Part shown: piece by piece, positions 1 through 12,490 of the stretch | How the letters are laid out: each line of letters begins with the position of its first letter | Position numbering within the stretch: the stretch's first letter is position 1 | DNA from: a virus | Taxonomy: Duplodnaviria; Caudoviricetes | DNA length: 39,645 bases | Direction: 5' to 3' (one strand) | IMG/VR virus record: IMGVR_UViG_3300012921_000082 | Made by a program: the position numbers and the translations under genes | Notes under the pieces: model-generated | What the model was told of the DNA's origin: nothing | Database searches by the model: none | The model's input: only the letters and a program-made list of their open reading frames with translations

Positions 1-1176
1 CTAGGCTGCGGTGAGGTAGACAGACTCTCCGAACGGCGTCTTTGCCGCCAGATCATCGAACGTTCGACTGTCGCCAAACACCGCCCAGATCACCGGGCAA
101 TTCGGAGCCTTGCCGAAATCATGAACGTAGAGGTCGGTGAAGAAAACGACTGCGGATGCGTCACCGGCATTCTTCGATATCCACTCGAAGACGCCAGAGA
201 TCGCGGTACCGCCGCCGCCTTTTGGATCGAGTGCAAGCTCGTCACCGGCTTCATACGTCTCGACGCGCTGCACCTTCGTGTCGGCGTAGATCACGGTGAT
301 GCGATCGACCATGCCGTCGCCGAACGCGCCATTGATCTCGGATGCAAAGGCAGTCAGCGCCTTGGCGTCGATCGAGCCCGAGGTGTCGACGCACACCACC
401 AGATGAGCAACGCCATCCGATATGACGCCAGGCAGCACCATGTTCTGGTGCAAGAACCGGCGGTTCGGCCGCGCCCACGAGAAGTCCTTCACGTTGCTCT
501 CGTCGATGAAACGCCGCAGCACTGAGCGCCAGTCGATCACGGGCCGGGTCAGGCGATTGATCAGCCGCTTCAAGCCGGCCGGCATATTGCCCGCCATCTT
601 CCCGTTGGCGATCGCCGCCGCCTGCCGCACCCTCGTCTCGATGTCGGCCTTCGCGTCGGCCAGGCCGGCCTCATCGAATGGCGAGCACGCGTCGATCACG
701 CCGCCGCATCCGCCCGGGTCGTTGCCCTGCTGCTGACCGCCGCCGCCATTCTGTTGCGCTTCCTCTTCGAGGATACGACACACCTCCTCTGCACCCATGC
801 CAGTGAAGCGCGGATTGAGCAGGCCGCCCTTGGGCATGGAGCCGACATTGGTCTCGGACAACTCACCGTTGATGCAGTAGTCCGCCGCGATGTTCCAAAG
901 CCGAGCGTCGCGCATCTGCCGGCGAATGTGGTGCTGCAGCGCGTTGTGCATCACCTCGTGCGCCAGAACGAAGATCAGCTCCTGCTTGGTCAGGCTCTCC
1001 ACGAACGGGCCGTGGACGTAGAGCCGCTTCCCGTCGGTGGCCATCGTGTCGATGCGCGGATCGCCCGTGGCGTCGACCAGTTCGAGCTGGATGGCGAGCG
1101 TGGCGAAGAACGGATGATCCCACAGCAGCGACGTGCGGGCGGCGAGCAATTTGTCTTCGACTGCTTTGCTAAGCAT
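1..1176 (-). CDS. Putative metallopeptidase + VWA domain protein (DUF2201-like), MoxR partner
   Basis: N-terminal HEVMH (HEXXH) followed by WNIAADYCIN; Q/G-rich linker; C-terminal VWA with MIDAS DTSGS, GGGT and FTD motifs; ATG at 1176 with AAGGA SD, overlapping the upstream stop. Confidence 0.88.
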   Translation of the reverse strand: MLSKAVEDKLLAARTSLLWDHPFFATLAIQLELVDATGDPRIDTMATDGKRLYVHGPFVESLTKQELIFVLAHEVMHNALQHHIRRQMRDARLWNIAADYCINGELSETNVGSMPKGGLLNPRFTGMGAEEVCRILEEEAQQNGGGGQQQGNDPGGCGGVIDACSPFDEAGLADAKADIETRVRQAAAIANGKMAGNMPAGLKRLINRLTRPVIDWRSVLRRFIDESNVKDFSWARPNRRFLHQNMVLPGVISDGVAHLVVCVDTSGSIDAKALTAFASEINGAFGDGMVDRITVIYADTKVQRVETYEAGDELALDPKGGGGTAISGVFEWISKNAGDASAVVFFTDLYVHDFGKAPNCPVIWAVFGDSRTFDDLAAKTPFGESVYLTAA

Positions 1177-1477
1177 CGGGATATTCCTTCTCAACTTGCT
1201 GATGGATCATGAACGCGACAGCGGCGGAAACTTCGGCAGCGGATAGCCGAGACTTCAGTAGCGTCGCGCAGGAGAGCTTTGACCAAGTGCTCGGTTGCTG
1301 ATCGGCGCGGCACGTCAACACCAGCCAACAACGATCACGGCCACGGAGATAGAGATAGTATCGGCGGTCTCCTGACATGCGCCCGAATTGCCAGAACATC
1401 GTCGGACCCAGGCTTGTCGAAAACGACGTGGTGAACCCTGTCGGAACAAGGTGCGAAAGCCATTGCGCCCGGGTCAC
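1169..1477 (-). CDS. Small paralogue family member A (hypothetical)
   Basis: GTGA overlap with upstream stop; motifs FWQF, RYYLYLRGRDRCW and C-terminal LKSRLSAAEVSAAVAFMI shared with neighbours. Confidence 0.75.
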   Translation of the reverse strand: MTRAQWLSHLVPTGFTTSFSTSLGPTMFWQFGRMSGDRRYYLYLRGRDRCWLVLTCRADQQPSTWSKLSCATLLKSRLSAAEVSAAVAFMIHQQVEKEYPDA

Positions 1478-1752
1478 GACAGCCCTCCCTCGCGGATCGA
1501 AGCCGCCATGCAGGCAGCGATCTCCGAAGGCAGGAGCATTAGCTTGAGAATTGCCACCTGACGGTCGTTGACCGCATACCTCCTCACGTGACCACCGGGC
1601 GTGAACCGCTCACATCGGTATGCCGTGAACCCGCGCTCGCTCTCCCAATAGCGGAGTTCATAGAAGACCAGAGGAGCAACTTGGCCGGGCTTCTTGAGGT
1701 GCCATTGGAAACGACCGGCATGCTGGCACACCGTGTAGTGCTTGAGCTTCAT
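1474..1752 (-). CDS. Small paralogue family member B (hypothetical)
   Basis: Start MKLKHY at ATGA overlap (1752); FQWHL, FYELRYWESERGF, LKLMLLPSEIAACMAASI. Confidence 0.75.
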   Translation of the reverse strand: MKLKHYTVCQHAGRFQWHLKKPGQVAPLVFYELRYWESERGFTAYRCERFTPGGHVRRYAVNDRQVAILKLMLLPSEIAACMAASIREGGLS

Positions 1753-2072
1753 GACTGATCTCGCGGATCGTAGATCGAGGCGGCCATGCAGCGGGCAAGC
1801 AATTCTGGTGGCAGGGCCGCCTGGAACGCATCGACCGTATCTGCTGATACGGGTCCCCGGAAATCTTCCCAGCTCCCTCGGCGAGAACGAATGAAACGGA
1901 TGCCGAGCGCGAAAAACCGATGTGGTGGAGAGTAGATCAGTTCGTACGTCCAGCGAGGATAATCCCAGCCACGGGTATGCCAACGGAACCTGAACTGATC
2001 GCCTTTGCAGCGCGGTCCGAACAGTTCGCGACGGATGGTTTCGGCATCAATGCACTCGATCAAATTGGGCAT
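1749..2072 (-). CDS. Small paralogue family member C (hypothetical)
   Basis: Start MPNLIE with AGGA SD; FRWHT, TYELIYSPPHRFF, FQAALPPELLARCMAASI. Confidence 0.75.
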   Translation of the reverse strand: MPNLIECIDAETIRRELFGPRCKGDQFRFRWHTRGWDYPRWTYELIYSPPHRFFALGIRFIRSRRGSWEDFRGPVSADTVDAFQAALPPELLARCMAASIYDPRDQS

Positions 2073-2101
2073 GATGGGTTCCTGTTTCACCAGCGGCAAT
2101 C

Positions 2102-2401
2102 TCAGAACGGAAGGTCTTCCTCTTCCGGCGGCGGCGCAGTCATCGCCCTCCGCATGCATCCGGCAACATCTTCATCGGAGAGCATTCCTTGGAAGGCTTG
2201 GCGCTGCTCAGGATCATCGATGCTGACGACCTCAACTACTTTTTGCCGAGAGAGTAAGAAGCGCCTCTCCGACAACATGAAGGTGAGGAAGTAGCGGTGT
2301 TCCAGGGCCGGCGACTTCCACTTGATCGGCTCGAACCACCAACGATTGACATCCACCTTCTTGATTTCGAAATATTCATTGATGAACTCTTGCGTCATCA
2401 T
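2102..2401 (-). CDS. Small paralogue family member D (hypothetical)
   Basis: ATGA overlap; RWWF, RYFLTFMLSERRF, FQGMLSDEDVAGCMRRAM; acidic EEEDLPF tail. Confidence 0.78.
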   Translation of the reverse strand: MMTQEFINEYFEIKKVDVNRWWFEPIKWKSPALEHRYFLTFMLSERRFLLSRQKVVEVVSIDDPEQRQAFQGMLSDEDVAGCMRRAMTAPPPEEEDLPF

Positions 2402-2724
2402 CGTCCGTGTCTCCTATGAAATTCGAGTGCCAGGCGGGTGGCCTCGGCTATGTCTTCGGGCTTGAGTTTGGCGCGCAGCATGGGTGTGACGCGACCGCTC
2501 AATGGTGGTGTTGCAACCGGCAGCGCAGCCAGTTTCGCGGCCTTCTCTTCATCGCCCGGATGGCCGGGCAATGCTTTCGTGCTGAACCGACGGCTGTCGA
2601 ACCAGAAGGCGAGATGCCAGCGTGCGTACTCGCCGTTCGTGCGCAGGCCGGAAAAGCTCCACGCCAGCCGATCTTCGCGACAGGTTTTGCTGCTCGGGCC
2701 CCAGATGACCTTAATCTCAGCCAT
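2398..2724 (-). CDS. Small paralogue family member E (hypothetical)
   Basis: Start MAEIKV at TGATG overlap; WGP, LAWSF, RWHLAFWFDSRRF, LRAKLKPEDIAEATRLAL. Confidence 0.78.
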   Translation of the reverse strand: MAEIKVIWGPSSKTCREDRLAWSFSGLRTNGEYARWHLAFWFDSRRFSTKALPGHPGDEEKAAKLAALPVATPPLSGRVTPMLRAKLKPEDIAEATRLALEFHRRHGR

Positions 2725-3110
2725 CAGCGTACCGCCTTCATTGCGAGACGGGCGGCAAAGGCGATGTCCTCTTTCGACAGGCGAGGTTTCAGGATGTCGA
2801 GGTAAGTCCGGCCGTAGAGCATGGGCTTGTCCGGAACATACGCATCGACAAAGGCGGGGTCGAGCAAGGGCTTCTCCCACTTCCCGCCGACCTTGATGGC
2901 CTCGGCCATCGGCAGGGCGAAAGCAGACCATTCTCTTTCCCGGACCTTGAACCGCACGCACCAGCGGCCCATCGAATTGTCCTCGCGGATGCCGAAGAAA
3001 TGCCAATCAACCTGTCGGACCCAACCATGTGGCGGGTTGACGACAGCCTGACCTACTCGATCTTCCGACCGCCCGAACGGTCCATAGAGGGCGCGGAGGA
3101 AGACAGTCAT
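2724..3110 (-). CDS. Small paralogue family member F (hypothetical)
   Basis: ATGA overlap; YGP, VDWHF, RWCVRFKVREREW, LKPRLSKEDIAFAARLAM. Confidence 0.78.
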   Translation of the reverse strand: MTVFLRALYGPFGRSEDRVGQAVVNPPHGWVRQVDWHFFGIREDNSMGRWCVRFKVREREWSAFALPMAEAIKVGGKWEKPLLDPAFVDAYVPDKPMLYGRTYLDILKPRLSKEDIAFAARLAMKAVR

Positions 3111-3454
3111 CCTTGCCGCCTCCCCGTGATGCCAAGGGCGGTGGCAAAGCCAATCTCCGCCGCCGGCAGCATCGCCTTGAGAGCGGTGAGTAAATCGCCA
3201 CGAGGCAGGTCGCTGCGCCCAATGGCGACGTGCTGGTAGAAGCGCCGGATTGTTGAGACGTGCGCTTGATCGCCGATATCCGATTTCAGCGCCTGGACGG
3301 TGAACTTCCGCGTCTCAGCCTTGTATCGCAGCCGGTAGCGCAAAAGCTGCTGGTTGCGGTTTTCGGCCACGAACTCCCACGCCAGGTCGAAGGCTGTATA
3401 TTTGCCCTCGTAGTACCGCGTCGGGCCGGCAATCCATATGATTGGCGCACTCAT
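3107..3454 (-). CDS. Small paralogue family member G (hypothetical)
   Basis: Start MSAPII at ATGA overlap; AGP, LAWEF, RYRLRYKAETRKF, LKAMLPAAEIGFATALGI. Confidence 0.78.
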   Translation of the reverse strand: MSAPIIWIAGPTRYYEGKYTAFDLAWEFVAENRNQQLLRYRLRYKAETRKFTVQALKSDIGDQAHVSTIRRFYQHVAIGRSDLPRGDLLTALKAMLPAAEIGFATALGITGRRQG

Positions 3455-3672
3455 GACGGTTGCCTGTTCTGCTGTTGCCACCAGTGGAGATAGCAGTTCC
3501 GCTGCTCCGCCTTCGGACACCCTTCCCACCACAGCCGGCACGTCCCCGGCCCGGCTTGTGGATCACGGCCGCAGGTCTTGGCGCCCTTCCGAACCGGTCG
3601 GTATGACCATGTCGACTGCAGCGGGTCATCGAACAGGCGGGGCTCACCCGCCTGCTGTGCGTTCTTGTTCAT
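3451..3672 (-). CDS. Small Cys/Trp-rich hypothetical protein
   Basis: ATG 3672 with GAGG SD just after the AAA gene; C-x10-C-x6-C-x7-C-x2-H; stop overlaps next start. Confidence 0.6.
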   Translation of the reverse strand: MNKNAQQAGEPRLFDDPLQSTWSYRPVRKGAKTCGRDPQAGPGTCRLWWEGCPKAEQRNCYLHWWQQQNRQPS

Positions 3673-3683
3673 CACCGGCGACC

Positions 3684-4676
3684 TCAGTTGAAGGTGACGT
3701 CCTGATTGCGGACGGCCCAATCCGTGAACACCTGCGTATGAGAAAGCTTGTTGTCGCGCCGGACCGCATCGACCGTGAACATGATCTCGAACTCGCGACC
3801 TTGGATACGCTGTGCGTAGATCATGCCGTTCTCGAAGCTCTTGGCATCCACCTTGCGGGCCAGGCCGGAAGCCATGGCGTACTTGGCGGCAGGCTCAGAT
3901 GGCACCGGTGCAGAGTTCGGATTAGCAAGCACCAGATCAAGCGAAGGAAGCTGCTGGTAGACGCGAATGAACCCCTCGAACTCGGCCGCGGCGCCATCAC
4001 CAACAATTCCCCTCACCGCCTCACTGCGCAGCGCTTCGGGAGCTTTGATCACCTTGGCAACGCTCTCCCAGGCACGCGGCGTCGGGAACGCACGTAGATC
4101 GGCCGCGCCTTCCATGTTGTGCAGGAGCGCCGGCCGAAAACGCAGAAAGGCAAGCAGCAGCGGATCCACGTCGATATCGATGAAATGCTGAACCGTGGTG
4201 TCGACATCCGGGTCGATATCGATGTGAGCGAAGCGGTTGGCCAGAGCGGAAGGCATACGCTGCGCAGCCGCCTTGTCGGACTGCCGGTTGCCTGCTGCAA
4301 TGATGCGCCAGCCGGGAGGCATCGTGTATTCGCCGACCTTCCGGTCCAGCACGAGACCGAAGGCTGCAGCCTGCATCGAGGGAGCCGCAACGTTCAGTTC
4401 ATCCAGGAAGAGAAACCCGCGCTCGCCGTCGCGCTCCACTTGCGGGAACTCATCCGGCACCTTCCATTTGGCAGTCTCACCCTCGACCGAGGGAATACCC
4501 ATCAGCGCGACCGGGTCACGTGTCGAGCAGCGAAAGTCGATCACGTTGACGCCCTGCTCTTTGGCGAGCTGTTTGATGAGCGAGGACTTGCCCACGCCCG
4601 GCATGCCCCACAGGAATGCGGCGAGATCGGCGTAGATGTAGAGCGACAGCAGTTCTTTGGCGCGCTTGAGGTTCAT
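3684..4676 (-). CDS. MoxR-like AAA+ ATPase (AAA_5 type)
   Basis: Walker A GMPGVGKS, Walker B FLFLDE, AAGN sensor I, ALANRF arginine finger, TPRAW sensor II; GGAGA SD. Confidence 0.92.
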   Translation of the reverse strand: MNLKRAKELLSLYIYADLAAFLWGMPGVGKSSLIKQLAKEQGVNVIDFRCSTRDPVALMGIPSVEGETAKWKVPDEFPQVERDGERGFLFLDELNVAAPSMQAAAFGLVLDRKVGEYTMPPGWRIIAAGNRQSDKAAAQRMPSALANRFAHIDIDPDVDTTVQHFIDIDVDPLLLAFLRFRPALLHNMEGAADLRAFPTPRAWESVAKVIKAPEALRSEAVRGIVGDGAAAEFEGFIRVYQQLPSLDLVLANPNSAPVPSEPAAKYAMASGLARKVDAKSFENGMIYAQRIQGREFEIMFTVDAVRRDNKLSHTQVFTDWAVRNQDVTFN

Positions 4677-4685
4677 TGATAGAGT

Positions 4686-4712
4686 TCTCCATTATTTGCC
4701 ATGCTTGGCGGG
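4686..4712 (-). promoter_or_regulatory. Pre-SD hairpin motif copy 1
   Basis: CCC-GCCA-AGCA-TGGC-7 nt-GGAGA before the AAA gene. Confidence 0.7.
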
Positions 4713-5000
4713 TTGGGATGAGGCTAGGAGTGGGGGCAGCGGCTCCAGACGCGGAAACGGCTGTCCTATCTTGTTGAATTCGATAGTGACCCGGCGGAGG
4801 GGGTAACCCCGCGACCGTGATCGGTCCTCCCGGATCGCGTCGATCTGCGCTTGCACGTAGATCCAGCGCTCGCCGTTATCGACGCGGGGTTTGTTGTCTT
4901 CCGAATGTGTGATCAGGAACCACGCATCGGAGATTAGCTCCTTGTGTATTTCGCCGTCGATCTCGCGGCGGACGTACTCGCCGATCGATTCTCCTGGCAT
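4692..5000 (-). CDS. Hypothetical protein
   Basis: 102-aa ORF packed in the operon, 3 nt from the upstream stop. Confidence 0.6.
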   Translation of the reverse strand: MPGESIGEYVRREIDGEIHKELISDAWFLITHSEDNKPRVDNGERWIYVQAQIDAIREDRSRSRGYPLRRVTIEFNKIGQPFPRLEPLPPLLASSQPAKHGK

Positions 5001-5003
5001 TGG

Positions 5004-5396
5004 TCAGAACCAGACGCGGCGGCGGAAAAGCACTGCTGGTCCGCAGATAGGTGGCATGGTTGCGGCGTCGTAGTTGTCCGGGTCGTGAGTGCGGATGTTG
5101 TTGTGATAGATGTCCGTCGCACGGACGTTCCGGATCATCTTGCCGTTGATCGCCGAGCGGTCCCCGACGAACATGTCGACATATTCGCCATCCACGAACA
5201 CCCGGACGCGTTCCATGCGCTCTCCGGCGAGATGCGGCTCGATCACAGCACGAAGGGCATCGAGGCTTGGCCGAGCCGTCAACTGGGTTTGGCGCTGCTG
5301 CACCTCCCCTATCTCGGGAATGACAAAATAGTCGGTCAACATGTCGGCCGCCCAAGCAACGAGCCAGTTGGGATCGACTTCGCTAAGGTGAGGCAT
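5004..5396 (-). CDS. Hypothetical protein, possibly DUF3846-like
   Basis: LDALRAVI..., N.RAT.IY and ICGPAVLF pattern recalled from this phage family; start uncertain. Confidence 0.55.
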   Translation of the reverse strand: MPHLSEVDPNWLVAWAADMLTDYFVIPEIGEVQQRQTQLTARPSLDALRAVIEPHLAGERMERVRVFVDGEYVDMFVGDRSAINGKMIRNVRATDIYHNNIRTHDPDNYDAATMPPICGPAVLFRRRVWF

Positions 5397-5400
5397 CGCA

Positions 5401-5586
5401 TCACTGCACCAGCGGTTGGTTGGCATCAATCTTGGCTTGGATACGAGCGATCCGCGCGTCATCTTCCGGTGTCGAACCGAAGAACGCGCAGTCGTCTCGC
5501 AAAGTATCCAGCCAGAGGCGCAGATCGGATATCTCGTGGAGCTCTAACCGGCCCTCTCGATCGAGCAGTTCCTGCAGGTGGCTCAT
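5401..5586 (-). CDS. Hypothetical protein
   Basis: 61-aa helical ORF, ATGA-coupled to the upstream gene. Confidence 0.6.
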   Translation of the reverse strand: MSHLQELLDREGRLELHEISDLRLWLDTLRDDCAFFGSTPEDDARIARIQAKIDANQPLVQ

Positions 5587-5792
5587 TGGATCACCGGCTG
5601 GTTGGCGACGATCGTCACATCCGCGTTCGTGGCGAGGTCGATCACGCGGATGCCCTCGATGCCGTCGACCTGGTCGTCAGCAAGCGTGGTCTGGTCGGCG
5701 TGATAGGCTGCGAGTGCAGCGGCGGGTGATGCAGCTGTGACGACGTGATACTCCGTGCAGCGCGTCGACACGGCGACGTGGTAGCGTTTCAT
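5583..5792 (-). CDS. Hypothetical protein
   Basis: Start MKRYHV with AGGAGA SD, upstream hairpin motif and ATGA overlap. Confidence 0.7.
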   Translation of the reverse strand: MKRYHVAVSTRCTEYHVVTAASPAAALAAYHADQTTLADDQVDGIEGIRVIDLATNADVTIVANQPVIQ

Positions 5793-6061
5793 AACGGGTC
5801 TCCTTTTTTCGCATGATTGCGGGGCGTGCCTGGGTGGCACGGATGGTGGCTCACTCCGGTGAAGTGGCGCCCGTTTCGATTGCCCCAGTGCCAAGCTTTG
5901 CAGCCTAGGCAGTAAAAGATGCCGACGGGCGCAAACAAACCGAGCATGCCAACTGTGCGAAGCGCCCAAACGGCGTTCACTGCGTCAGCAGGGGTGGCGT
6001 ACGGGACTTTCGGAGTACGCCGGCACTGCTTGCGCCGCTTTCCAAGAAAGCCGAGCGGCAT
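5789..6061 (-). CDS. Small putative Zn-binding phage protein
   Basis: C...K.PYAT..DA...YCLGCKAWH pattern; start 1 nt after the upstream stop. Confidence 0.62.
   Translation of the reverse strand: MPLGFLGKRRKQCRRTPKVPYATPADAVNAVWALRTVGMLGLFAPVGIFYCLGCKAWHWGNRNGRHFTGVSHHPCHPGTPRNHAKKGDPL
5799..5824 (-). promoter_or_regulatory. Pre-SD hairpin motif copy 2
   Basis: CCC-CGCA-ATCA-TGCG-6 nt-GGAGA. Confidence 0.7.
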
Positions 6062-6062
6062 G

Positions 6063-6386
6063 TTACCGGCCCTTCGCCTTCGCAAGAGCCGCATGGCCGG
6101 CGTCGGAAAGTACTTTCAGCCCTTTCCAGTTCTCGTTTAGGCCGCTGGTCTGCCGCTCGTCTATCTCGATGTCGATCTCATGCAGGATTGCCCCGAGCGC
6201 CGCGCGCATCTCCTTTGCGGCTGACAGCAGATAGGCGTTGGCAAGCGCGTCTCCGTTCGCCTTGCCACCCTTTGAGCCGATGCGGTGGACACCGCAGATG
6301 ACGACTGCCGGGGTGGTGAGCGCTACAATGCGGACGAGGCGTCCATTGCTCACCGACCACGTGCCGTCCGTGGGTTGCGATTTCAT
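6063..6386 (-). CDS. Hypothetical phage protein
   Basis: GGAGA SD and hairpin motif; T.G.W start and ANAYLLSAAKEM...AALAKAKG, a variant of the common phage ANARLIAAAPEL motif. Confidence 0.75.
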   Translation of the reverse strand: MKSQPTDGTWSVSNGRLVRIVALTTPAVVICGVHRIGSKGGKANGDALANAYLLSAAKEMRAALGAILHEIDIEIDERQTSGLNENWKGLKVLSDAGHAALAKAKGR

Positions 6387-6391
6387 CGTGT

Positions 6392-6416
6392 TCTCCATGA
6401 TCGCATGATTGCGGGG
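6392..6416 (-). promoter_or_regulatory. Pre-SD hairpin motif copy 3
   Basis: CCC-CGCA-ATCA-TGCG-5 nt-GGAGA. Confidence 0.7.
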
Positions 6417-6432
6417 TTTGGAGGCGGCTGCT

Positions 6433-6693
6433 TCAGCCGCCGCCGGTATCAATTTCGATTGATCTGGGAGTCATTTCCTCGTCCACCCAAAACAAATCGT
6501 CTTCGCCGCAAGCGACATAAAGCACGCAGTTTGGAAGGATGGTGGGTAGAAAATTACCTTTGGCATCGATCGATGTTACGCCACAGAATGGCTGATGATC
6601 AGTGCTCGATTGCGAAAACTGACGGCGGAGACTGTCCCGGGCGCAGTTTAGAAGATCAAGGTATTGCTCGCCGGTCATACGCATCGAGGTCAC
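6433..6693 (-). CDS. Hypothetical protein
   Basis: 86-aa ORF with GTGA overlap to the upstream stop; visibly more AT-rich than its neighbours. Confidence 0.55.
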   Translation of the reverse strand: MTSMRMTGEQYLDLLNCARDSLRRQFSQSSTDHQPFCGVTSIDAKGNFLPTILPNCVLYVACGEDDLFWVDEEMTPRSIEIDTGGG

Positions 6694-7598
6694 GCCAAAA
6701 AACCGGAAACCTGATCGAGGATCTTCTTCGCCTCGGCCGCCACATCCTTGCGGACACCTTCGTTCTCGCGCAGCACTTGCGCGTCCCAGGCGGCGAGCGG
6801 ACGCAGGCGATCGACCATGGCGGTCAGTTCCGGATCACCAGTGATGTTCAGCATCGGCAGCACTTCGATCAGGTCGCGGACGTTGAGGACGAGCGAGTCG
6901 CGGAAGGCGCCTTCCGTCTGGTCTCCTTTACGCGCGGCGGGGCGGTAGGCGGTAAGCCGTTCCGCCATCCTGCCGGCGACATCGGCGACACGGCGATAGA
7001 CATCACGGACCGCGGTGGCCGCACCCTCGCGCACCTGGCGCTCGATATCCGCCCGGATGACGTCCGCTTGAGCTTCGGACATTGAGACACGGAAGTCTTC
7101 CGGCGTCGGCACGGGCAGCTTGCGCAACTCCATGCTGTAGCGATCGCGCAGTGAGTCGACCGTTGGATAGTCGGCGTCCTTAAACAGGCCGGACATCCGG
7201 TCCGGAGCGCTGCGGACCAGTTCCGGATATGAGGCGATGAACTCGCCCACGGCGTCCATGAATTTCTGCTTCTGGAGCGACAGCCAGCGGTCGTTCGCCA
7301 TGATCGCGGCCGCATTCATGATCCGGCCGCCGCCATCCATCCAAGGCAGAGTGCGCTTGTCGAACTCGGCGCGCGTGGCGCTGACGATCGACTGGATCGG
7401 TTGCAACGCCTCCTTCGGCAGCAGCAGCTTGTTGAACCGGCCGGCGTCGGCAGACGCACCATGCTCGCGGTTCACTTCGTCGGTGATCTGGCGATCGAGG
7501 CGACGGCCAGACCACTGCGTGATGTGCAGCGACACGACCACGGCGCGCGCAGCGAGTGTGGCGGTGACGGATGACGGAATACGGGCATGAGCGTTCAT
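6690..7598 (-). CDS. DUF3150-like protein
   Basis: Start MNAHAR with GGAGA SD; WSGRRLD, K.LL, TLPW..GGRI, DYP..D.LR.RY, LNITGDPEL pattern recalled from DUF3150-like mobile-element proteins. Confidence 0.7.
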   Translation of the reverse strand: MNAHARIPSSVTATLAARAVVVSLHITQWSGRRLDRQITDEVNREHGASADAGRFNKLLLPKEALQPIQSIVSATRAEFDKRTLPWMDGGGRIMNAAAIMANDRWLSLQKQKFMDAVGEFIASYPELVRSAPDRMSGLFKDADYPTVDSLRDRYSMELRKLPVPTPEDFRVSMSEAQADVIRADIERQVREGAATAVRDVYRRVADVAGRMAERLTAYRPAARKGDQTEGAFRDSLVLNVRDLIEVLPMLNITGDPELTAMVDRLRPLAAWDAQVLRENEGVRKDVAAEAKKILDQVSGFLA

Positions 7599-7606
7599 GC
7601 TTCTGG

Positions 7607-7632
7607 TCTCCATGGGTGCCATGATTGGCGGG
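7607..7632 (-). promoter_or_regulatory. Pre-SD hairpin motif copy 4
   Basis: CCC-GCCA-ATCA-TGGC-6 nt-GGAGA before the DUF3150-like gene. Confidence 0.7.
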
Positions 7633-7690
7633 GTTAAACGACAGAGCGACCTATCGCTTGACGAGAACGTGCCGTGAACGTGGCACGGAG

Positions 7691-8065
7691 TCAAGGCGCT
7701 TCTTTGTACCGTGGCGTGTCAGGCAGCACGCCGACCATGCGCACGCGCGTGGCGTCGGCAATATCCTCACCTGTCAGCAGCGAGATCGCGGCGTCCACCA
7801 GCCTGTCACCCTTGAAGCGCGGGAAATCGAGCGAGGGATAGGCGTAAATATCGGCAGGGATTTTGTATCGCTCGAAATTGGATGAATACGTCTGTGGCAC
7901 GTCAAAGTATGGACGTGAACGCGCGGCGGCGCGGCGTGTGACCGCGTCGACCGTTACCTCTTGACGGCTCTGGAATCCGGCTTCGCCAATGAAGACGAAC
8001 CAGAATTTCAGTTTTGAGGCTGTCACCTGCCGCGCGTAGGGACCAATCAAGAGATGTTCCATCAT
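7691..8065 (-). CDS. Small paralogue family member H (detached, most divergent)
   Basis: IGP, FWFVF, RQEVTVDAVTRRA and C-terminal ISLLTGEDIADATRVRM resembling member E. Confidence 0.68.
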   Translation of the reverse strand: MMEHLLIGPYARQVTASKLKFWFVFIGEAGFQSRQEVTVDAVTRRAAARSRPYFDVPQTYSSNFERYKIPADIYAYPSLDFPRFKGDRLVDAAISLLTGEDIADATRVRMVGVLPDTPRYKEAP

Positions 8066-8304
8066 GGCTGGCTCGGGCGCAGCTCAGTCGTCTTCATGAA
8101 CTCGATGAGACGCAGGCGCTCTTCCCGCTCCGTGTCCGTCTCGACACGCGGTCGCTCGAGCCAGGCAAGGACCATGGCGCGGTGTTCCTCGCTGTATGGG
8201 CGGCCATCCTCGAAGAAAAACGAGAACATGCAGGCGCCGGGGTCACCGGCGCGCAGATAGGAACCGTAGGCGGAGGCCGCGCCGTAAGCGTGGCGGCGGT
8301 TCAT
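8062..8304 (-). CDS. Hypothetical phage protein
   Basis: Start MNRRHA at ATGA overlap; GDPGACMFSF...DGRP..EEHR. Confidence 0.65.
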   Translation of the reverse strand: MNRRHAYGAASAYGSYLRAGDPGACMFSFFFEDGRPYSEEHRAMVLAWLERPRVETDTEREERLRLIEFMKTTELRPSQP

Positions 8305-8648
8305 TGGTTGCAACCCTCCACCACGATCACTTCCCGCGGATTGGGAGGCACTACCGCGCCAGTCATGGCGTCCGAAAACGTGTCGCCCTGCCCGACGACA
8401 TATTCGTCGCCTGTCCAGTCCACGGCCGAGACCGTGCAGACGGGCGCATGCATGACAGTCCACCACGCTTGCGCGGCCATGGTGGATACGATGACAAGCG
8501 CGGCGACAAGCGAGCCGATAAGAATGATGGAGGCGCGCTGCGCTCGGATTTCGCGCAGGCGCTGGCCCTCGAACTCGCCAACGAAGAACGGATTCCGGCC
8601 TTCAAGCGAAGCGGTATCGTTCACGGGAACACGGTCGGGATTCAGCAT
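8301..8648 (-). CDS. Hypothetical single-pass membrane protein
   Basis: Hydrophobic IILIGSLVAALVIVSTMAA segment; start overlaps upstream stop. Confidence 0.65.
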   Translation of the reverse strand: MLNPDRVPVNDTASLEGRNPFFVGEFEGQRLREIRAQRASIILIGSLVAALVIVSTMAAQAWWTVMHAPVCTVSAVDWTGDEYVVGQGDTFSDAMTGAVVPPNPREVIVVEGCNQ

Positions 8649-8839
8649 GGCCAGCCGCTTTCGAGAACGCGGGCAGACTGGAGACGGGTGCGCTGCGCGC
8701 GGAAGAAATCGCATTCGCGCGCGAGATCTTCCTCGAACTCGCGGCGGTCGCGTTCACGTGGCGTTTCATACGCAGGATGATGCCGGAAGGCGGCAGCGCG
8801 CGCGGTGCGCCTGTCGTCCGGCTGGAAGACGGATTGCAT
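8642..8839 (-). CDS. Hypothetical protein
   Basis: GGAGA SD and hairpin motif precede the ATG; 65 aa, charged. Confidence 0.62.
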   Translation of the reverse strand: MQSVFQPDDRRTARAAAFRHHPAYETPRERDRREFEEDLARECDFFRAQRTRLQSARVLESGWPC

Positions 8840-8848
8840 GACGGATTC

Positions 8849-8874
8849 TCTCCATTGGTGCCATAAGCGGCGGG
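8849..8874 (-). promoter_or_regulatory. Pre-SD hairpin motif copy 5
   Basis: CCC-GCCG-CTTA-TGGC-6 nt-GGAGA (G-U closing pair). Confidence 0.65.
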
Positions 8875-9123
8875 AAAAGGCAGTTTACCGACGTGCCAAG
8901 GTCCGGGCGGAATCCTACCGCCATGGCTTCCTCACATTGCCCTTCAGCGGGCTATCTGCGTTGCGCTGGTGGCGTGGCGCGCAGCTTTCCGGCTTGCTTT
9001 ATCCCTCGCCCGGCGACGAGTCCGCGTGCGTCGTGGCGGTTGTTGAGGCTCGACCCTTCCACGCGATTTCGGCCATGTGGCCGCGTCTGGACGGATTCCT
9101 CCCGTCCACACGTAGCGACATGC

Positions 9124-9154
9124 AAAAAAGGCCGCGCGACAGAAGCCGCGCGGC
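9124..9154 (-). terminator. Intrinsic terminator after first early gene
   Basis: Minus strand GCCGCGCG-8 nt-CGCGCGGC followed by CTTTTTT. Confidence 0.8.
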
Positions 9155-9179
9155 TGGAGTGATGGATATCAGGCGAGGA

Positions 9180-9878
9180 TTAGGCAGCTGCGCTGGCCAG
9201 ACGGTCGGACGCTTCACGGTCAACCTTGATACGCTTGATCGTGGAAGCGGGCGCAGCGTCCTTGTCGGATTCCGGCTTGGCGACCTTCGGACGGCTGGCC
9301 TTCGGCGCGGCTTCCTTGGTCTCCTCGCCTTCCACTGGCTTGGTTTCGGCCTGCTTGATCTCGACCACGTTCGAGGTTGCGGCAGCGGGCTTCGCCTTGG
9401 CCGTCATCTCGCGGTATTTCTTGATCTGGGTGGCCATGAACAGGGCGAAGTTCTTGTCGTCCTGACCCGCGTCGTCGTCGTCAAGCGTGGCGTCCGCAAT
9501 CTTGCCAATACGGTCGACAAGCGGTGCCTTGGCCTTGGCTTCGGTCGATTTCTTGTCCTTTTCATAGTCCGCCGGCGACGTGGTGAATGCGGCCGGAAGG
9601 TCGGATTTCTTGCCCTTGGCATAAGTGAACACCAGCTTGACCGCGTCAAACGCGACCTTGCCGAACGCGGTCATCCACTTGACGACGGCGGCGCGGTAAT
9701 TCTTGGGCGTGGCCGAGTAGATGGCGTTGCAGTAAATCGCGTCGTGATGTTGCTCGACGTGGTTCAGCGCCGAATAGGCAAGCTGGTGCGTCTTTTCGGT
9801 GAAGGTGGCGGCGGTCTTGCCGTAGCTGGCAACGGCGGTCTTGAGGGACTTGCCGGTCAGGATTGCGAAAGCGGTCAT
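9180..9878 (-). CDS. First early protein, with Lys/Ala/Glu-rich disordered C-terminus
   Basis: Start MTAFAI with GGAGA SD and hairpin motif; N-terminal pattern (H...H.D....N.I...P...R....KW...FG) recalled from early genes of other phages. Confidence 0.75.
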   Translation of the reverse strand: MTAFAILTGKSLKTAVASYGKTAATFTEKTHQLAYSALNHVEQHHDAIYCNAIYSATPKNYRAAVVKWMTAFGKVAFDAVKLVFTYAKGKKSDLPAAFTTSPADYEKDKKSTEAKAKAPLVDRIGKIADATLDDDDAGQDDKNFALFMATQIKKYREMTAKAKPAAATSNVVEIKQAETKPVEGEETKEAAPKASRPKVAKPESDKDAAPASTIKRIKVDREASDRLASAAA

Positions 9879-9885
9879 GTTCATT

Positions 9886-9911
9886 TCTCCGTAGGTGGCA
9901 TAATTGCCGGG
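9886..9911 (-). promoter_or_regulatory. Pre-SD hairpin motif copy 6
   Basis: CCC-GGCA-ATTA-TGCC-6 nt-GGAGA. Confidence 0.7.
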
Positions 9912-10005
9912 TTTCGGTCTCAAGCGACCGTGACAGGCGCGTTCAGCGCCGCACCTGTCAGAGTGGCTTGAGTGTGACGCCGCGCAGCTCGCACCGCGCG
10001 GCGTC

Positions 10006-10028
10006 TCTCCTTCTTTGCCATGATTGGC
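10006..10028 (-). promoter_or_regulatory. Pre-SD hairpin motif copy 7 (in leader, no clear ORF)
   Basis: GCCA-ATCA-TGGC-6 nt-GGAGA followed by a long GCGA-tetraloop stem rather than an ATG. Confidence 0.6.
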
Positions 10029-10470
10029 GATTTGCGGTCTTACCGTTGCCAGCGTGACCGCATTCATTTGCGAGATTGAAATCTGAATTGTTCTTTCTCG
10101 AACGACTCGCCCTTGCGAGTTGCTAGCCTTCCGGGGACGGCGGGCCGCTTGGTGGCGTCCCTTCAAGCGGGGTCGTTTAACCCTCGCACCGCGCATTTGT
10201 TCCCGTGCGCTCTACCGTCTCGCCTGCCCGCTTCGTTGCGCGGCGTACCTTGGTAGCCCCATTGTTTCGATAAGTCGGCGCAATGGGAGCGCCCGTACGG
10301 CTGGCCTAGTGAGTCACCACTGGCATCGGACCGTCTGCTATAGGTTCAAGGCCGCGCCCCCTCGCCTGCCTGCCAATCGTCCAGCCTTGCCAGCCTGCCA
10401 TCCAGAAGGATGACCGCTTGACGTTGCCAGCAACCGGCAAGCCCGAAGGCCGCTTGTCCTGTCACCACTC

Positions 10471-10496
10471 TGTCAAAGAACTCGGCGAACTCGCCG
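10471..10496 (-). promoter_or_regulatory. boxB-like hairpin + boxA-like antitermination element
   Basis: CGGCG-AGTT-CGCCG hairpin followed by GTTCTTTGACA, resembling the boxA consensus GCTCTTTAACA, about 20-45 nt after the predicted TSS. Confidence 0.6.
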
Positions 10497-10520
10497 CACC
10501 GCTAGGAAGCGATGGCCAAC

Positions 10521-10570
10521 ACATAGAGGCATGCCGTCACCATGTCAATATGCTTTTGCTATTTTATTCA
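10521..10570 (-). promoter_or_regulatory. Sigma70 early promoter with UP element
   Basis: ATTGAC (10549-10544)-N17-CTATGT (10526-10521), matching the rhizobial CTTGAC-N17-CTATAT consensus; A-rich TGAATAAAATAGCAAAAG upstream. Confidence 0.75.
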
Positions 10571-10633
10571 TTATCCAGCCATCACGGCTTTATACATACC
10601 CCGCGCCTCATGCAAAGACCGTGTGCCTGGCAT

Positions 10634-10678
10634 CGCATTGTCATGCTGCTACCCCTCGCCCTGCACCGCATTGTCATG
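10634..10678 (+). repeat. Direct repeat CGCATTGTCATG x2
   Basis: Exact 12-mer at 10634 and 10667, 33 bp apart. Confidence 0.8.
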
Positions 10679-10822
10679 GGTAGCCAATGGCCCGCTAGCC
10701 TGCCCTATCCCTGCCCATTGATGCGGCCCTGCCGCCTCTCCAGCCTGCCTGTTCATCGAGCATCGAAGTGCAACGACAACTGGCCGCACGACAGGCCAAG
10801 CCCCTCGCCTCGCCGGTCAGAA

Positions 10823-10896
10823 GGGAGGGGGGGCTAAATCTCTACGGGTCCATTGGGGGTGCCACCGCTGCGGGGTCAGGTTCACAAAATTTTTTC
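10823..10896 (+). other. Putative cos (packaging initiation) region
   Basis: GGGAGGGGGGGCTAAATCTCT...CCGCTGCGG...AAAATTTTTT, resembling signatures around cos in HNH/Terminase_1 phages; non-coding and upstream of the packaging genes. Confidence 0.5.
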
Positions 10897-11027
10897 CGAC
10901 AGGAGGAAGATTCGCGAAAAGCGGGTCAGAGCGACCGAAAAAACAGGGCAAAAACCCAGCATTTAGTACTGGTCCAATGAAAATTGTCAGGGCCGCGAAA
11001 TTGATGGGTATTTTTGAAATTCACCTA

Positions 11028-11222
11028 AGCGGACAAATGCCGGACACCAGCCGGACAGATGGCGGACAAATGGCGGTTTTTGCCATTTGTCGATTTCGCA
11101 AAGCGCTGGACCAATTGAGGTTGTCAGCGTTCGGCCGGACAAAAGCCGGACAAACGGCGGACAAGTGACGATTCCGCCATGATCGATGGAACGGACAAAC
11201 GGCGGACAAATGCTGGACATTT
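11028..11222 (+). repeat. Helically phased 11-bp repeats (consensus GSCGGACAAAT)
   Basis: GGAC cores at 11031, 11042, 11053, 11064, 11108, 11137, 11148, 11159, 11193, 11204 and 11215. Confidence 0.9.
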
Positions 11223-11443
11223 GGCGGTTCTACGCGTGTGCGCACGGCCTTCAGCTATAACCTGAGAAGTAGGAGGCCCTCATAGGCCGACCTATCTTCG
11301 TCTCCCGTTAGAGCCCGTCATCGGAGGTTGTTGGGGGATGGCTGCTGCGCGCCACCCCGTTGACAGTCCCCCGCGTTTACGGTCAATTCCAGCCGCTGGC
11401 GAGAAAACCGCCCGGCTCCTCCCCTTCACAATCGAGCATTGGC

Positions 11444-11779
11444 ATGGTCCGAATGTTGAGACCGGCGATTCCTGTCGCCGATCTGCGCATAGCCCGGCCG
11501 CGCGAGAAGCGCGTCGATCCGGAGCTGAACACCCAGGCGTACAAGCGCTGGGCTGACGAGGTGAAACGTCGGGCGGGATACCGCTGCGAATATGTCAACG
11601 GCGGCCACCGCTGCCCAAGGTCCAGTGCCGACGGCGACAGGATGATCGCGGATCACATTCGCGAGCGGAAAGATGGCGGCGGGCTGCTCGATCCCAAGAA
11701 CGGTCAATGCCTTTGCGTCTCCCACAACACCGCGAAGGGCATCGCCGCCCGAGCGGCGCGCATGAAGGAACAGTTCTGA
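11444..11779 (+). CDS. HNH endonuclease (packaging-associated)
   Basis: YRCE...RC, ADHIRERKDGG...NGQCLCVSHN; upstream of terS; start uncertain. Confidence 0.88.
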   Translation: MVRMLRPAIPVADLRIARPREKRVDPELNTQAYKRWADEVKRRAGYRCEYVNGGHRCPRSSADGDRMIADHIRERKDGGGLLDPKNGQCLCVSHNTAKGIAARAARMKEQF

Positions 11780-12033
11780 TGCAGATCGGAATGATAGAGG
11801 GTGCCACACGCATCCTTGGCAAATCGCAAGGCTACGCTGGCCTACCTCTACGTGACGAGATGACCAACTGCAGCGTCGGCGGCGAGAACACTCCTGCGAT
11901 GATCACCGCCTGGCTCCCGACGCCGAAAGAGCTCGAAGCTCTCAATGCCGGCGCCGCGGTGCATGTCCGGCTGATCGGAACGGGGCATCCGCCTATCATG
12001 GTGGAAGTCGGCCCGGTACCGGGCGAGCACTGA
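11779..12033 (+). CDS. Hypothetical phage protein
   Basis: TGATG overlap; LPLRD...TAWLPTPKELEALNAG...GTGHPP pattern. Confidence 0.75.
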   Translation: MQIGMIEGATRILGKSQGYAGLPLRDEMTNCSVGGENTPAMITAWLPTPKELEALNAGAAVHVRLIGTGHPPIMVEVGPVPGEH

Positions 12034-12034
12034 C

Positions 12035-12490
12035 ATGTCCACCGTCAAGCGAGCGCGAGGTCGGCCGCAGTTCAAGCCGTCCGCCACCCAACGTCGCACC
12101 GTCGAGCAGATGGTGTCCTGTGGTGACAGCAAGCGCATGATCGCGCGCGCCCTCAAGATCGACGAGGACACGCTCAACAAGCACTTCGTCGAGGAGTTAG
12201 AGAACGGCGCGGCCAGGAAACGCCGCGAAGTGATCGACATGGTCTACAAGGGGGCGAAGAAGGGAAACGCCACCCTGATCAAGCGCCTCGAGGAGATGAC
12301 GCGGATCTCGGGCGCAAAGGAAGACCTCGACCAGCCTGAAAATCCGAAGGGCAAATCGGCGGCACCGACATCGCCGCGTGCGCCAAAGCGCGGCAAGAAG
12401 GAAATCCAGCGCGATGAGGCGCTGCTCGCTGGTCAAAACTCCGAGTGGGGTGAAGATCTCGCTCCGCTGCCGGGTACCAGGCCGAACTGA
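12035..12490 (+). CDS. terS: Terminase small subunit
   Basis: N-terminal GRP and HTH (IARALKIDEDTLNKHF); GKKE...W C-terminus; coupled to terL. Confidence 0.8.
   Translation: MSTVKRARGRPQFKPSATQRRTVEQMVSCGDSKRMIARALKIDEDTLNKHFVEELENGAARKRREVIDMVYKGAKKGNATLIKRLEEMTRISGAKEDLDQPENPKGKSAAPTSPRAPKRGKKEIQRDEALLAGQNSEWGEDLAPLPGTRPN

What the first reader, a model, noticed from the sequence alone, without database searches (positions are those of the whole stretch)
1169..3454. Tandem array of seven highly diverged small paralogues between a MoxR AAA+ ATPase and a peptidase-VWA gene
Seen: seven 92-128 aa ORFs, linked (except one 29-nt gap) by ATGA/GTGA/TGATG overlaps, share three ordered motifs. (i) A W-x-F-type strand: FWQF, FQWHL, FRWHT, RWWF, LAWSF, VDWHF, LAWEF, often preceded by GP. 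(ii) [YW]-x-[LV]-x-[YFL]-x4-R-x-[FW]: RYYLYLRGRDRCW, FYELRYWESERGF, TYELIYSPPHRFF, RYFLTFMLSERRF, RWHLAFWFDSRRF, RWCVRFKVREREW, RYRLRYKAETRKF. (iii) A C-terminal helix [LF]-x3-L-x3-[ED]-[IV]-A-x-[AC], e.g. LKLMLLPSEIAACMAASI, FQGMLSDEDVAGCM, LRAKLKPEDIAEATRLAL, LKPRLSKEDIAFAARLAM. The loop between (ii) and (iii) varies in length and sequence. Neighbours are most alike (B/C CMAASI, C/D AFQ..L....A.CM, E/F L..EDIA.A.RLA), suggesting serial duplication. Inference: a diversified family with a conserved scaffold and docking helix plus a variable surface, as expected for target-recognition adaptors or anti-defence effectors. I do not recognise the family.
Basis: partly seen in the sequence, partly recalled or inferred. 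Interest (0 to 1): 0.92.

Follow-up and report, generated by a model that had tools for sequence, protein, structure and literature searches.

The report
New paralogue array inside phage MoxR-VWA
A group of prophages carries one to seven very different copies of an unnamed small, positively charged protein right after an ATP-driven remodelling enzyme (MoxR) gene and before its peptidase partner, and these copies likely act as interchangeable target-recognising parts that help the phage disarm its host early in infection.

Summary
Confirmed. The seven ORFs, plus an eighth at 7691-8065, are one unnamed family. Each scores 29-57 bits against a profile lacking its close relatives, versus under 10 for shuffles. 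There are 261 clusters at 50% identity and no Pfam, PHROG, NCBIfam or PADLOC name. All 22 loci with this MoxR clade carry 1-7 members directly after the ATPase, usually translationally coupled; 0 of 4 loci with distant MoxR-VWA pairs do. Two AlphaFold models share a four-strand meander plus two C-terminal helices. No fold match is clear (best Z 5.1); Pur-alpha, SpoVG and ssRNA-phage coats recur weakly. The conserved helix covaries with the hydrophobic sheet face, so it is core rather than a shown docking helix. The other face is variable and basic. Types G, E, F and H are old orthologue groups in shuffled order, not recent serial duplicates. New: a covarying 4-bp hairpin sits just upstream of ribosome-binding sites across this operon, including the ATPase's. 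Best guess, untested: specificity modules for an early anti-defence MoxR/peptidase-VWA remodeller (0.35).

The parts
1..1176 (-). DUF2201 metallopeptidase-VWA protein (391 aa; HEVMH at 73, DTSGS at 264)
   Evidence: PF13203 E 4e-45, PF09967 E 1e-22; phrog_1314; motifs
1169..1477 (-). Family member A (most diverged, short type)
   Evidence: 29.4 bits leave-group-out vs shuffle max 8.7
1474..1752 (-). Family member B (short type)
   Evidence: 39.1 bits
1749..2072 (-). Family member C (short type; modelled, pLDDT 85.1)
   Evidence: 35.8 bits; model
2102..2401 (-). Family member D (the only acidic copy here, pI 4.9)
   Evidence: 35.2 bits; pI; dN/dS 0.23 vs L035
2398..2724 (-). Family member E (conserved orthologue group; modelled, pLDDT 82.8)
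   Evidence: 56.4 bits; model; tree
2724..3110 (-). Family member F (conserved orthologue group)
   Evidence: 56.9 bits; alignment
3107..3454 (-). Family member G (type that comes first after the ATPase in 13 of 22 loci)
   Evidence: 50.0 bits
3451..3672 (-). 73-codon Cys-rich non-family ORF coupled to G; may not be a real gene
   Evidence: no tblastn match in 32 loci; no NCBIfam or PADLOC hit
3684..4676 (-). MoxR-like AAA+ ATPase (330 aa; GMPGVGKS, LFLDE, NRF)
   Evidence: PF00004/PF07728, phrog_1297 E 1e-87, tblastn to annotated phage MoxR-like ATPases
4698..4709 (-). Start-associated hairpin (4-bp stem, 4-nt loop) upstream of the ATPase Shine-Dalgarno; heads the ATPase-array-VWA unit
   Evidence: covariation across loci
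6690..7598 (-). DUF3150-like gene, preceded by the same hairpin (7618-7629)
   Evidence: PF11348 only E 0.024, below its cut-off; homologue in most related loci
7691..8065 (-). Eighth family member H (conserved GPYARQ type), outside the array
   Evidence: 28.8 bits; hhalign with G-type 96.5% and F-type 92.6%
5810..10028 (-). Further copies of the hairpin at 5810-5821, 6402-6413, 7618-7629, 8860-8871, 9897-9908 and 10017-10028 in the same leftward operon

Best explanation
The array encodes a family of small basic beta-sheet proteins whose genes sit directly after, and mostly overlap, a prophage MoxR ATPase gene ahead of its peptidase-VWA partner, and they likely serve as interchangeable specificity modules that bind nucleic-acid or acidic nucleoprotein targets for that machine to remodel or cut in early anti-defence. 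Shown: family membership, linkage, gene overlaps, purifying selection, basic charge, and old core types (G, E, F, H) plus a variable distal set. Predicted: the fold, a four-strand meander with two helices on one face and a variable K/R-rich opposite face. Inferred and untested: early expression, co-translation, nucleic-acid binding, any contact with the ATPase or VWA protein, and an anti-defence role.
For: 22 of 22 loci of this ATPase clade have 1-7 members right after the ATPase, and 85 of 118 hits lie there; 0 of 4 loci with distant ATPases have any. Family-anchored scans returned only contigs already found through the ATPase: 8 of 8 and 6 of 6. The one other genus genome with strong hits (G535) also has the array between ATPase and VWA. 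The first member starts -8 to +12 nt from the ATPase stop in 17 of 19 loci, and none of 102 listed members follows one of 125 hairpin-marked starts. Median pI is 9.7 (n=102) against 5.0 for 23 other small operon ORFs (sequences not independent). The variable strand face has 26% K/R, 8% D/E and entropy 3.4 bits, against 1.9 bits and 79% hydrophobic on the conserved face. Array genes diverge faster than their flanks: 55-74% identity (G, F, E, D) vs 87% for ATPase and VWA against L035. A phage MoxR ATPase is required to overcome the DS-28 defence (PMC13716836, passage). The operon also holds an N6-methyltransferase-like gene, ParB and a beta-clamp.
Against: 33 of 118 hits lie elsewhere in the operon, away from the ATPase-VWA interval. 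Related MoxR ATPases occur in 835 phage records (their neighbourhoods not examined), and MoxR-VWA pairs in L009-L011 and L041 lack the family, so the machine does not generally need it. The conserved positions map to the predicted core, and no conserved exposed patch for a shared partner was found. Fold matches are at background level (Z up to 5.1). A published proposal gives the phage MoxR/peptidase-vWA pair a virion-assembly role instead (PMC7824862, passage). Whether the Bas54 ATPase belongs to this clade was not tested. D is acidic.
Confidence: 0.35

Rival explanations
1. The paralogues are independent early effectors, each binding its own host target or nucleic acid. They sit behind the ATPase only because that is a well-expressed, duplication-tolerant spot.
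For: 33 of 118 hits lie outside the interval. H-type is a strongly supported separate group and lies upstream. No shared exposed patch was found. MoxR-VWA pairs occur without the family. Other genes also insert here: an HNH-like ORF in L035 (read) and the 73-codon ORF in the window.
Against: The position is kept in 22 of 22 loci, including hosts from four named families, with stop/start overlaps in most. No member was found in an element lacking the ATPase (small sample).
Confidence: 0.3
2. The proteins are PC4-like or coat-protein-like RNA binders, possibly heterodimers, that recognise the start-associated hairpins and tune translation of the early operon, including their own coupled unit through the hairpin before the ATPase.
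For: The hairpin occurs 4-10 times, only on the coding strand, in 17 of 21 family loci, against 0-1 in 4 control loci. Both outer stem positions pair in 126 of 187 sites chosen without regard to pairing, against 43.8 +/- 5.1 permuted (sites related). 16 of the top 50 rows for model C are ssRNA-phage coats, and Pur-alpha is the top three for model E. A review groups Pur-alpha, PC4 and MS2/PP7 coats as one beta4-alpha fold (PMC7549692, passages). The loop resembles the MS2 operator ANYA loop (recalled).
Against: L024 and L037 have members but no hairpin, and L007 and L039 have one each. Control phages L009 and L010 have a different start-associated palindrome and no family. One hairpin class does not need up to ten divergent binders. 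Fold scores are at background and mostly cover the sheet only.
Confidence: 0.15
3. G, E and F (with others) form one hetero-oligomeric assembly, and the ATPase/VWA pair is its assembly chaperone rather than its user.
For: Core types are retained and coupled across phages. The long helix is small or hydrophobic at most positions. MoxR-VWA pairs are described as chaperone-cochaperone systems (PMC7824862, passage).
Against: No single type is present in all loci: G is missing in several, L040 has one member in the interval, and order and number vary.
Confidence: 0.1
4. The fold is an RWD/UBC/Crl-like protein-binding adaptor that acts on host proteins such as transcription machinery, with no nucleic-acid binding.
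For: Most Foldseek rows for model C are E2/UBC chains, with Crl at ranks 2, 4 and 6. Kinetochore chains recur.
Against: All E-values are 0.09 or worse, TM about 0.3 and rmsd 8-16 A. The strong basic bias favours an acidic ligand.
Confidence: 0.1

Closest known systems
Phage MoxR AAA+ / metallopeptidase-vWA pair (phrog_1297 + phrog_1314; jumbo-phage pair in PMC7824862; N4 gp24/gp25 label recalled)
   Same: Same two domain architectures with intact Walker A/B, HExxH and DxSxS motifs.
   Different: Here the two genes are separated by a variable array of an unnamed family. This was not seen in four distant loci or in the passages read.
Bas54_0063, a phage MoxR ATPase needed against the DS-28 defence (PMC13716836; preprint 10.1101/2025.11.20.689424)
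   Same: A phage MoxR-type ATPase with an anti-defence phenotype.
   Different: Different phage and host. The passages read name no paralogue array, and homology to this clade was not tested.
PC4-like beta4-alpha domains (PC4, Pur-alpha, YdbC, T5 factor, MS2/PP7 coats; PMC7549692) and SpoVG
   Same: Four-strand antiparallel meander followed by helices and a basic sheet face; these are the recurring weak structural neighbours.
   Different: Z only 3.5-5.1, mostly over the sheet. There is a variable insert and an extra short helix before the long helix, no sequence similarity, and the swapped dimer is untested.
Start-associated sequences (SAS/ESAS) of Cluster K mycobacteriophages (PMC3203893)
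   Same: Short repeats just upstream of start codons of many phage genes, function unknown.
   Different: Unrelated sequence. Here it is a covarying 4-bp stem with a 4-nt loop, not a fixed 13-mer or 17-bp inverted repeat.

Membership tests
One homologous family (A-H) | Profile similarity above shuffles without close relatives in the profile | tested here: met
   28.8-56.9 bits vs shuffle max 9.9; control ORF -1.7; hhalign G/F 98.4%, G/H 96.5%, F/H 92.6%
One homologous family (A-H) | Same predicted fold | tested here: inconclusive
MoxR AAA+ / peptidase-vWA pair (flanking genes) | AAA+ with Walker A/B next to a zincin-peptidase + vWA protein with MIDAS | tested here: met
PC4-like fold | [quoted passage not shown] | tested here: inconclusive
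   Element order fits with an extra helix; Pur-alpha Z 4.5-4.8, rmsd 1.7-2.6, 45-54 residues, sheet only
PC4-like fold | Helix-swapped dimer | not tested
   The complex-prediction queue was full; covariation cannot tell cis from swapped packing
PC4-like fold | ssDNA/RNA binding on the sheet | not testable with these tools
   Only indirect: basic charge and K/R-rich variable face
AP2 / integrase arm-binding domain | Three-strand sheet plus one helix, sequence or fold match | tested here: inconclusive
   Atlas feature score 0.80, at chance level; models show four strands; not among listed fold rows
RWD/UBC/Crl-like | Superposable alpha-beta4-alpha2 fold | tested here: inconclusive
   Foldseek E 0.09 or worse, TM about 0.3, rmsd 8-16 A
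Any named Pfam/PHROG/NCBIfam/PADLOC family | Significant profile hit | tested here: not met
   No hit for A-G, and only E 0.041 for H; in 149 homologues no Pfam family hit more than 2 members; in 57 members no PHROG hit more than 1
Start-associated hairpin as a known RNA family | Rfam match | tested here: not met
   Window 1-12500 gave one sub-threshold match (P6, 31.9 bits vs 50)

The most novel reading that the evidence does not exclude
These prophages encode a modular ATP-driven targeting machine. A MoxR/peptidase-VWA core is programmed by up to ten swappable PC4-like nucleic-acid-reading subunits that may combine as heterodimers, and some of them read a repeated ANYA-type hairpin beside the ribosome-binding sites of the early operon: a coat-protein/operator-like RNA code in a dsDNA phage, coupled to an AAA+ remodeller.
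Probability: 0.12. Interest if true: 0.93.

Novelty: new variant of a known kind. Interest (0 to 1): 0.74.

Why it matters
Tandem expansions of very divergent paralogues are unusual in compact phage genomes (own knowledge) and often mark an arms race. What phage MoxR-VWA pairs act on is open: one paper proposes virion assembly and another shows an anti-defence phenotype. A family that is always found with one clade of the pair, and varies in number and type, gives direct baits to find its clients. It also supplies at least 261 sequence clusters of an unnamed small fold and a repeated, covarying translation-start hairpin that can be tested with simple reporters.

Tried and rejected
Name searches (Pfam, PHROGs, NCBIfam, PADLOC) and PDB sequence searches (best E 0.03-0.09, Rai1, a short stretch) gave nothing. 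The ESM Atlas gave scores of 0.80 or less, at chance level. Foldseek against PDB and BFVD had no E<=0.001; VIA best Z 5.1 and 4.8. These absences do not show a new fold. The homodimer prediction could not be run because the queue was full, so dimer or partner binding has no verdict. No isolated phage or plasmid match was found. No fused or longer forms were found among 7994 candidates (weak). The two long hits (P0085, P0119) are repeat proteins and were dropped. Genome searches: 0 of 150 relatives with the first profile, 1 of 201 other genus genomes, and 4 weak partial hits in 400 order genomes. Three of those four were fetched and looked spurious, with no ATPase nearby. RNA runs gave scattered short contigs that cannot show expression. 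The promoter scan was at chance. The 100% pairing comes from sites chosen as paired and is not used as a test. The hairpin pattern was derived from these sites, so its 12 vs 0.14 enrichment is partly circular. Literature searches listed no paper describing this array or hairpin. Earlier-finding look-ups were empty.
Full report
Setting. The window is part of a temperate siphovirus-like prophage at G000:C1:1247693-1287337. Terminase, portal, capsid and tail genes lie on the plus strand from about 12 kb. An integrase, an S24-type repressor-like gene and primase-related genes lie to the left of the window. The finding sits in a long leftward operon: DUF3150-like gene (weak, E 0.024), MoxR-like ATPase (4676-3684), the array and a DUF2201 peptidase-VWA gene (1176-1), followed outside the window by HNH, N6-methyltransferase-like, ParB and beta-clamp genes. 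That this is an early operon is inferred from gene content. Named relatives are Hyphomicrobiales prophages.

Observation. The seven ORFs, their motifs and their junctions are as reported, and an eighth member H lies at 8065-7691. Pairwise similarity is patchy: 11 of 28 pairs reach p<0.05 and 4 reach p=0.001. Profiles built from 110-237 of 245 homologues, after removing the window's proteins and each query's close relatives, score all eight at 28.8-56.9 bits against shuffle maxima under 10; a neighbouring control ORF scores -1.7. Subfamily profiles align at 92.6-98.4% probability. Against L035, dN/dS is 0.11-0.50 for six array genes (two of them, B and C, uncertain orthologues) and 0.09-0.14 for ATPase, VWA and the DUF3150-like gene.

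Family and distribution. A profile of 57 sequences found 261 clusters at E<=0.001 among 1.84 billion representatives. Of the best 150, 148 are 88-154 aa and two are repeat-protein artefacts. No library names the family. I scanned 26 loci after dropping six duplicates (L023, L027, L028, L029, L034, L038; for the first four) and L012 (short match only). All 22 with the close ATPase clade, including L001 which is the window's own element, carry 1-7 members directly after the ATPase and up to 10 in the locus. The 4 with distant ATPases carry none. 85 of 118 hits are directly after the ATPase and 33 are elsewhere in the operon, all on the coding strand. L022's three hits include two pieces of one broken gene, and L025, L026, L030 and L031 are close kin. 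Family-anchored scans gave only contigs that also hold the ATPase (8 of 8, 6 of 6). The element is rare: 1 of 201 other genus genomes and no convincing hit in 400 order genomes. The first member starts within -8 to +12 nt of the ATPase stop in 17 of 19 loci.

Evolution. A quick tree of 102 members (126 columns, many open forks) groups G, E, F and H with counterparts in other phages; H has 99% support and the others 84-93%. A-D fall in a more diverse short-type set. Order varies (GFE, GEF, GxxEF, FE, EF). L008 holds an E-start/F-end chimera, read as a deletion between paralogues. So the array is old and still rearranging, not a recent serial duplication in this genome.

Structure. Models of E (pLDDT 82.8, pTM 0.68) and C (85.1, 0.76) both give four consecutive strands, a variable insert, a short helix and a long helix. 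I could not superpose them. One strand face is conserved and hydrophobic and the other is variable and basic. Covariation in 245 sequences links the helices to the hydrophobic face (F40-A99 z 10.8, R45-A99 6.9, F24-L83 4.4, W22-A95 3.4), in cis or swapped. Members are far more basic than other small ORFs of the same operons (median pI 9.7, n=102, vs 5.0, n=23). No fold search gave a clear match: Foldseek had none at E<=0.001 and the best VIA Z was 5.1 for C and 4.8 for E. The recurring weak neighbours are Pur-alpha, ssRNA-phage coats (16 of 50 rows for C) and SpoVG. PMC7549692 (passages) places Pur-alpha and MS2/PP7 coats in one PC4-like class of swapped-dimer nucleic-acid binders; SpoVG was not among its search-listed terms. 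E2/UBC and Crl dominate the Foldseek list for C at equally weak scores. The dimer test could not be run because the queue was full.

A second feature. A repeated element lies a few bases upstream of Shine-Dalgarno sequences on the coding strand: CCC, a 4-bp stem and a mostly A-N-C/T-A loop. One copy heads the ATPase-array-VWA unit (4698-4709) and the next lies 205 nt left of the window. It occurs 4-10 times in 17 of 21 family loci, once in two and not at all in two, never on the other strand, and 0-1 times in 4 control loci. Among 187 sites chosen without regard to the outer stem, both outer positions pair in 126, against 43.8 +/- 5.1 (max 63) in 10,000 permutations (sites are related, and 36 have a C-A outer mismatch). 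Rfam does not know it. None of 102 listed members follows such a site among 125, though one weak L040 member does. Control phages L009 and L010 have a different palindrome in the same position, so start-associated repeats may be a general trait of these operons, like the SAS/ESAS of PMC3203893 (passages). The likeness to the MS2 operator loop is recalled, not tested.

Mechanism. Constant position, coupling, faster evolution than the flanks and a variable basic face fit specificity modules for the MoxR/peptidase-VWA pair, binding nucleic acid or acidic nucleoprotein. A phage MoxR ATPase has a shown anti-defence role (PMC13716836 and its preprint, passages), while PMC7824862 (passages) proposes virion assembly for such pairs in jumbo phages. 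Against the adaptor view are the scattered copies, the absence of the family beside other MoxR-VWA pairs and the lack of a conserved exposed patch. I put adaptor at 0.35, independent effectors at 0.30, hairpin-binding translational regulators at 0.15, a chaperoned hetero-oligomer at 0.10 and a UBC-like protein adaptor at 0.10.

Novelty and verdict. Nine literature searches (listings only, except the papers named above) showed no description of this array or hairpin. The library lacks most subscription papers, and I read no supplements; those of PMC7824862 and PMC13716836 may bear on gene neighbourhoods. The flanking pair is a known kind; the family, its array and the hairpin appear undescribed. 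Verdict: real, new variant of a known kind, interest 0.74.

Noticed in passing
window 4698-10028 (minus strand) and G000:C1:1236-1247.5 kb; 17 of 21 family loci: Covarying 4-bp-stem, 4-nt-loop hairpin preceded by CCC, just upstream of Shine-Dalgarno sequences throughout the leftward operon; no Rfam match.
   Followed up: partly
L009 (e.g. before 2699, 3768, 6024) and L010 (e.g. before 3947, 6392, 7665, 8745): Distant MoxR-VWA phages without the family have a different start-associated palindrome, TGTGAC...GTCACA, resembling a CRP-type site (recalled), before many genes.
   Followed up: no
window 10548-10521 and 10520-9870 (minus strand): TTGACA with a -10-like hexamer seen by eye (not reported by the scan), followed by about 650 nt without a long minus-strand ORF and with several hairpins; possible main promoter and structured leader.
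   Followed up: no
window 11028-11229: Five imperfect 40-nt copies built from GGACA-containing 11-nt units just before the packaging genes; possible cos or origin-associated repeats.
   Followed up: no
L008:9362-9628: Chimeric gene with an E-type start fused to an F-type end, lacking the middle strands.
   Followed up: partly
L035:8007-8607: An HNH-like ORF (read by eye from the translation) occupies the gap between the ATPase and G, where the window has a 73-codon Cys-rich ORF.
   Followed up: no
L022:6097-6431: E-type gene split over two reading frames.
   Followed up: no
window 9869-9180 and 5402-5004 (minus strand): Two unnamed genes conserved in most related loci; the first matches phrog_1448.
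   Followed up: no
G000:C1:1216000-1219600: MerR regulator, pyridine-nucleotide disulphide reductase and small membrane ORFs just outside the integrase end; looks like a mercury-resistance cluster.
   Followed up: no
window 32510-34471 (+): Tail-region protein with a C-terminal GDSL esterase domain, a possible tail-spike deacetylase.
   Followed up: no
window 1000-10600: Held in full by 17 public runs with very mixed labels, and as scattered near-identical fragments in RNA runs; may reflect a common contaminant organism.
   Followed up: no
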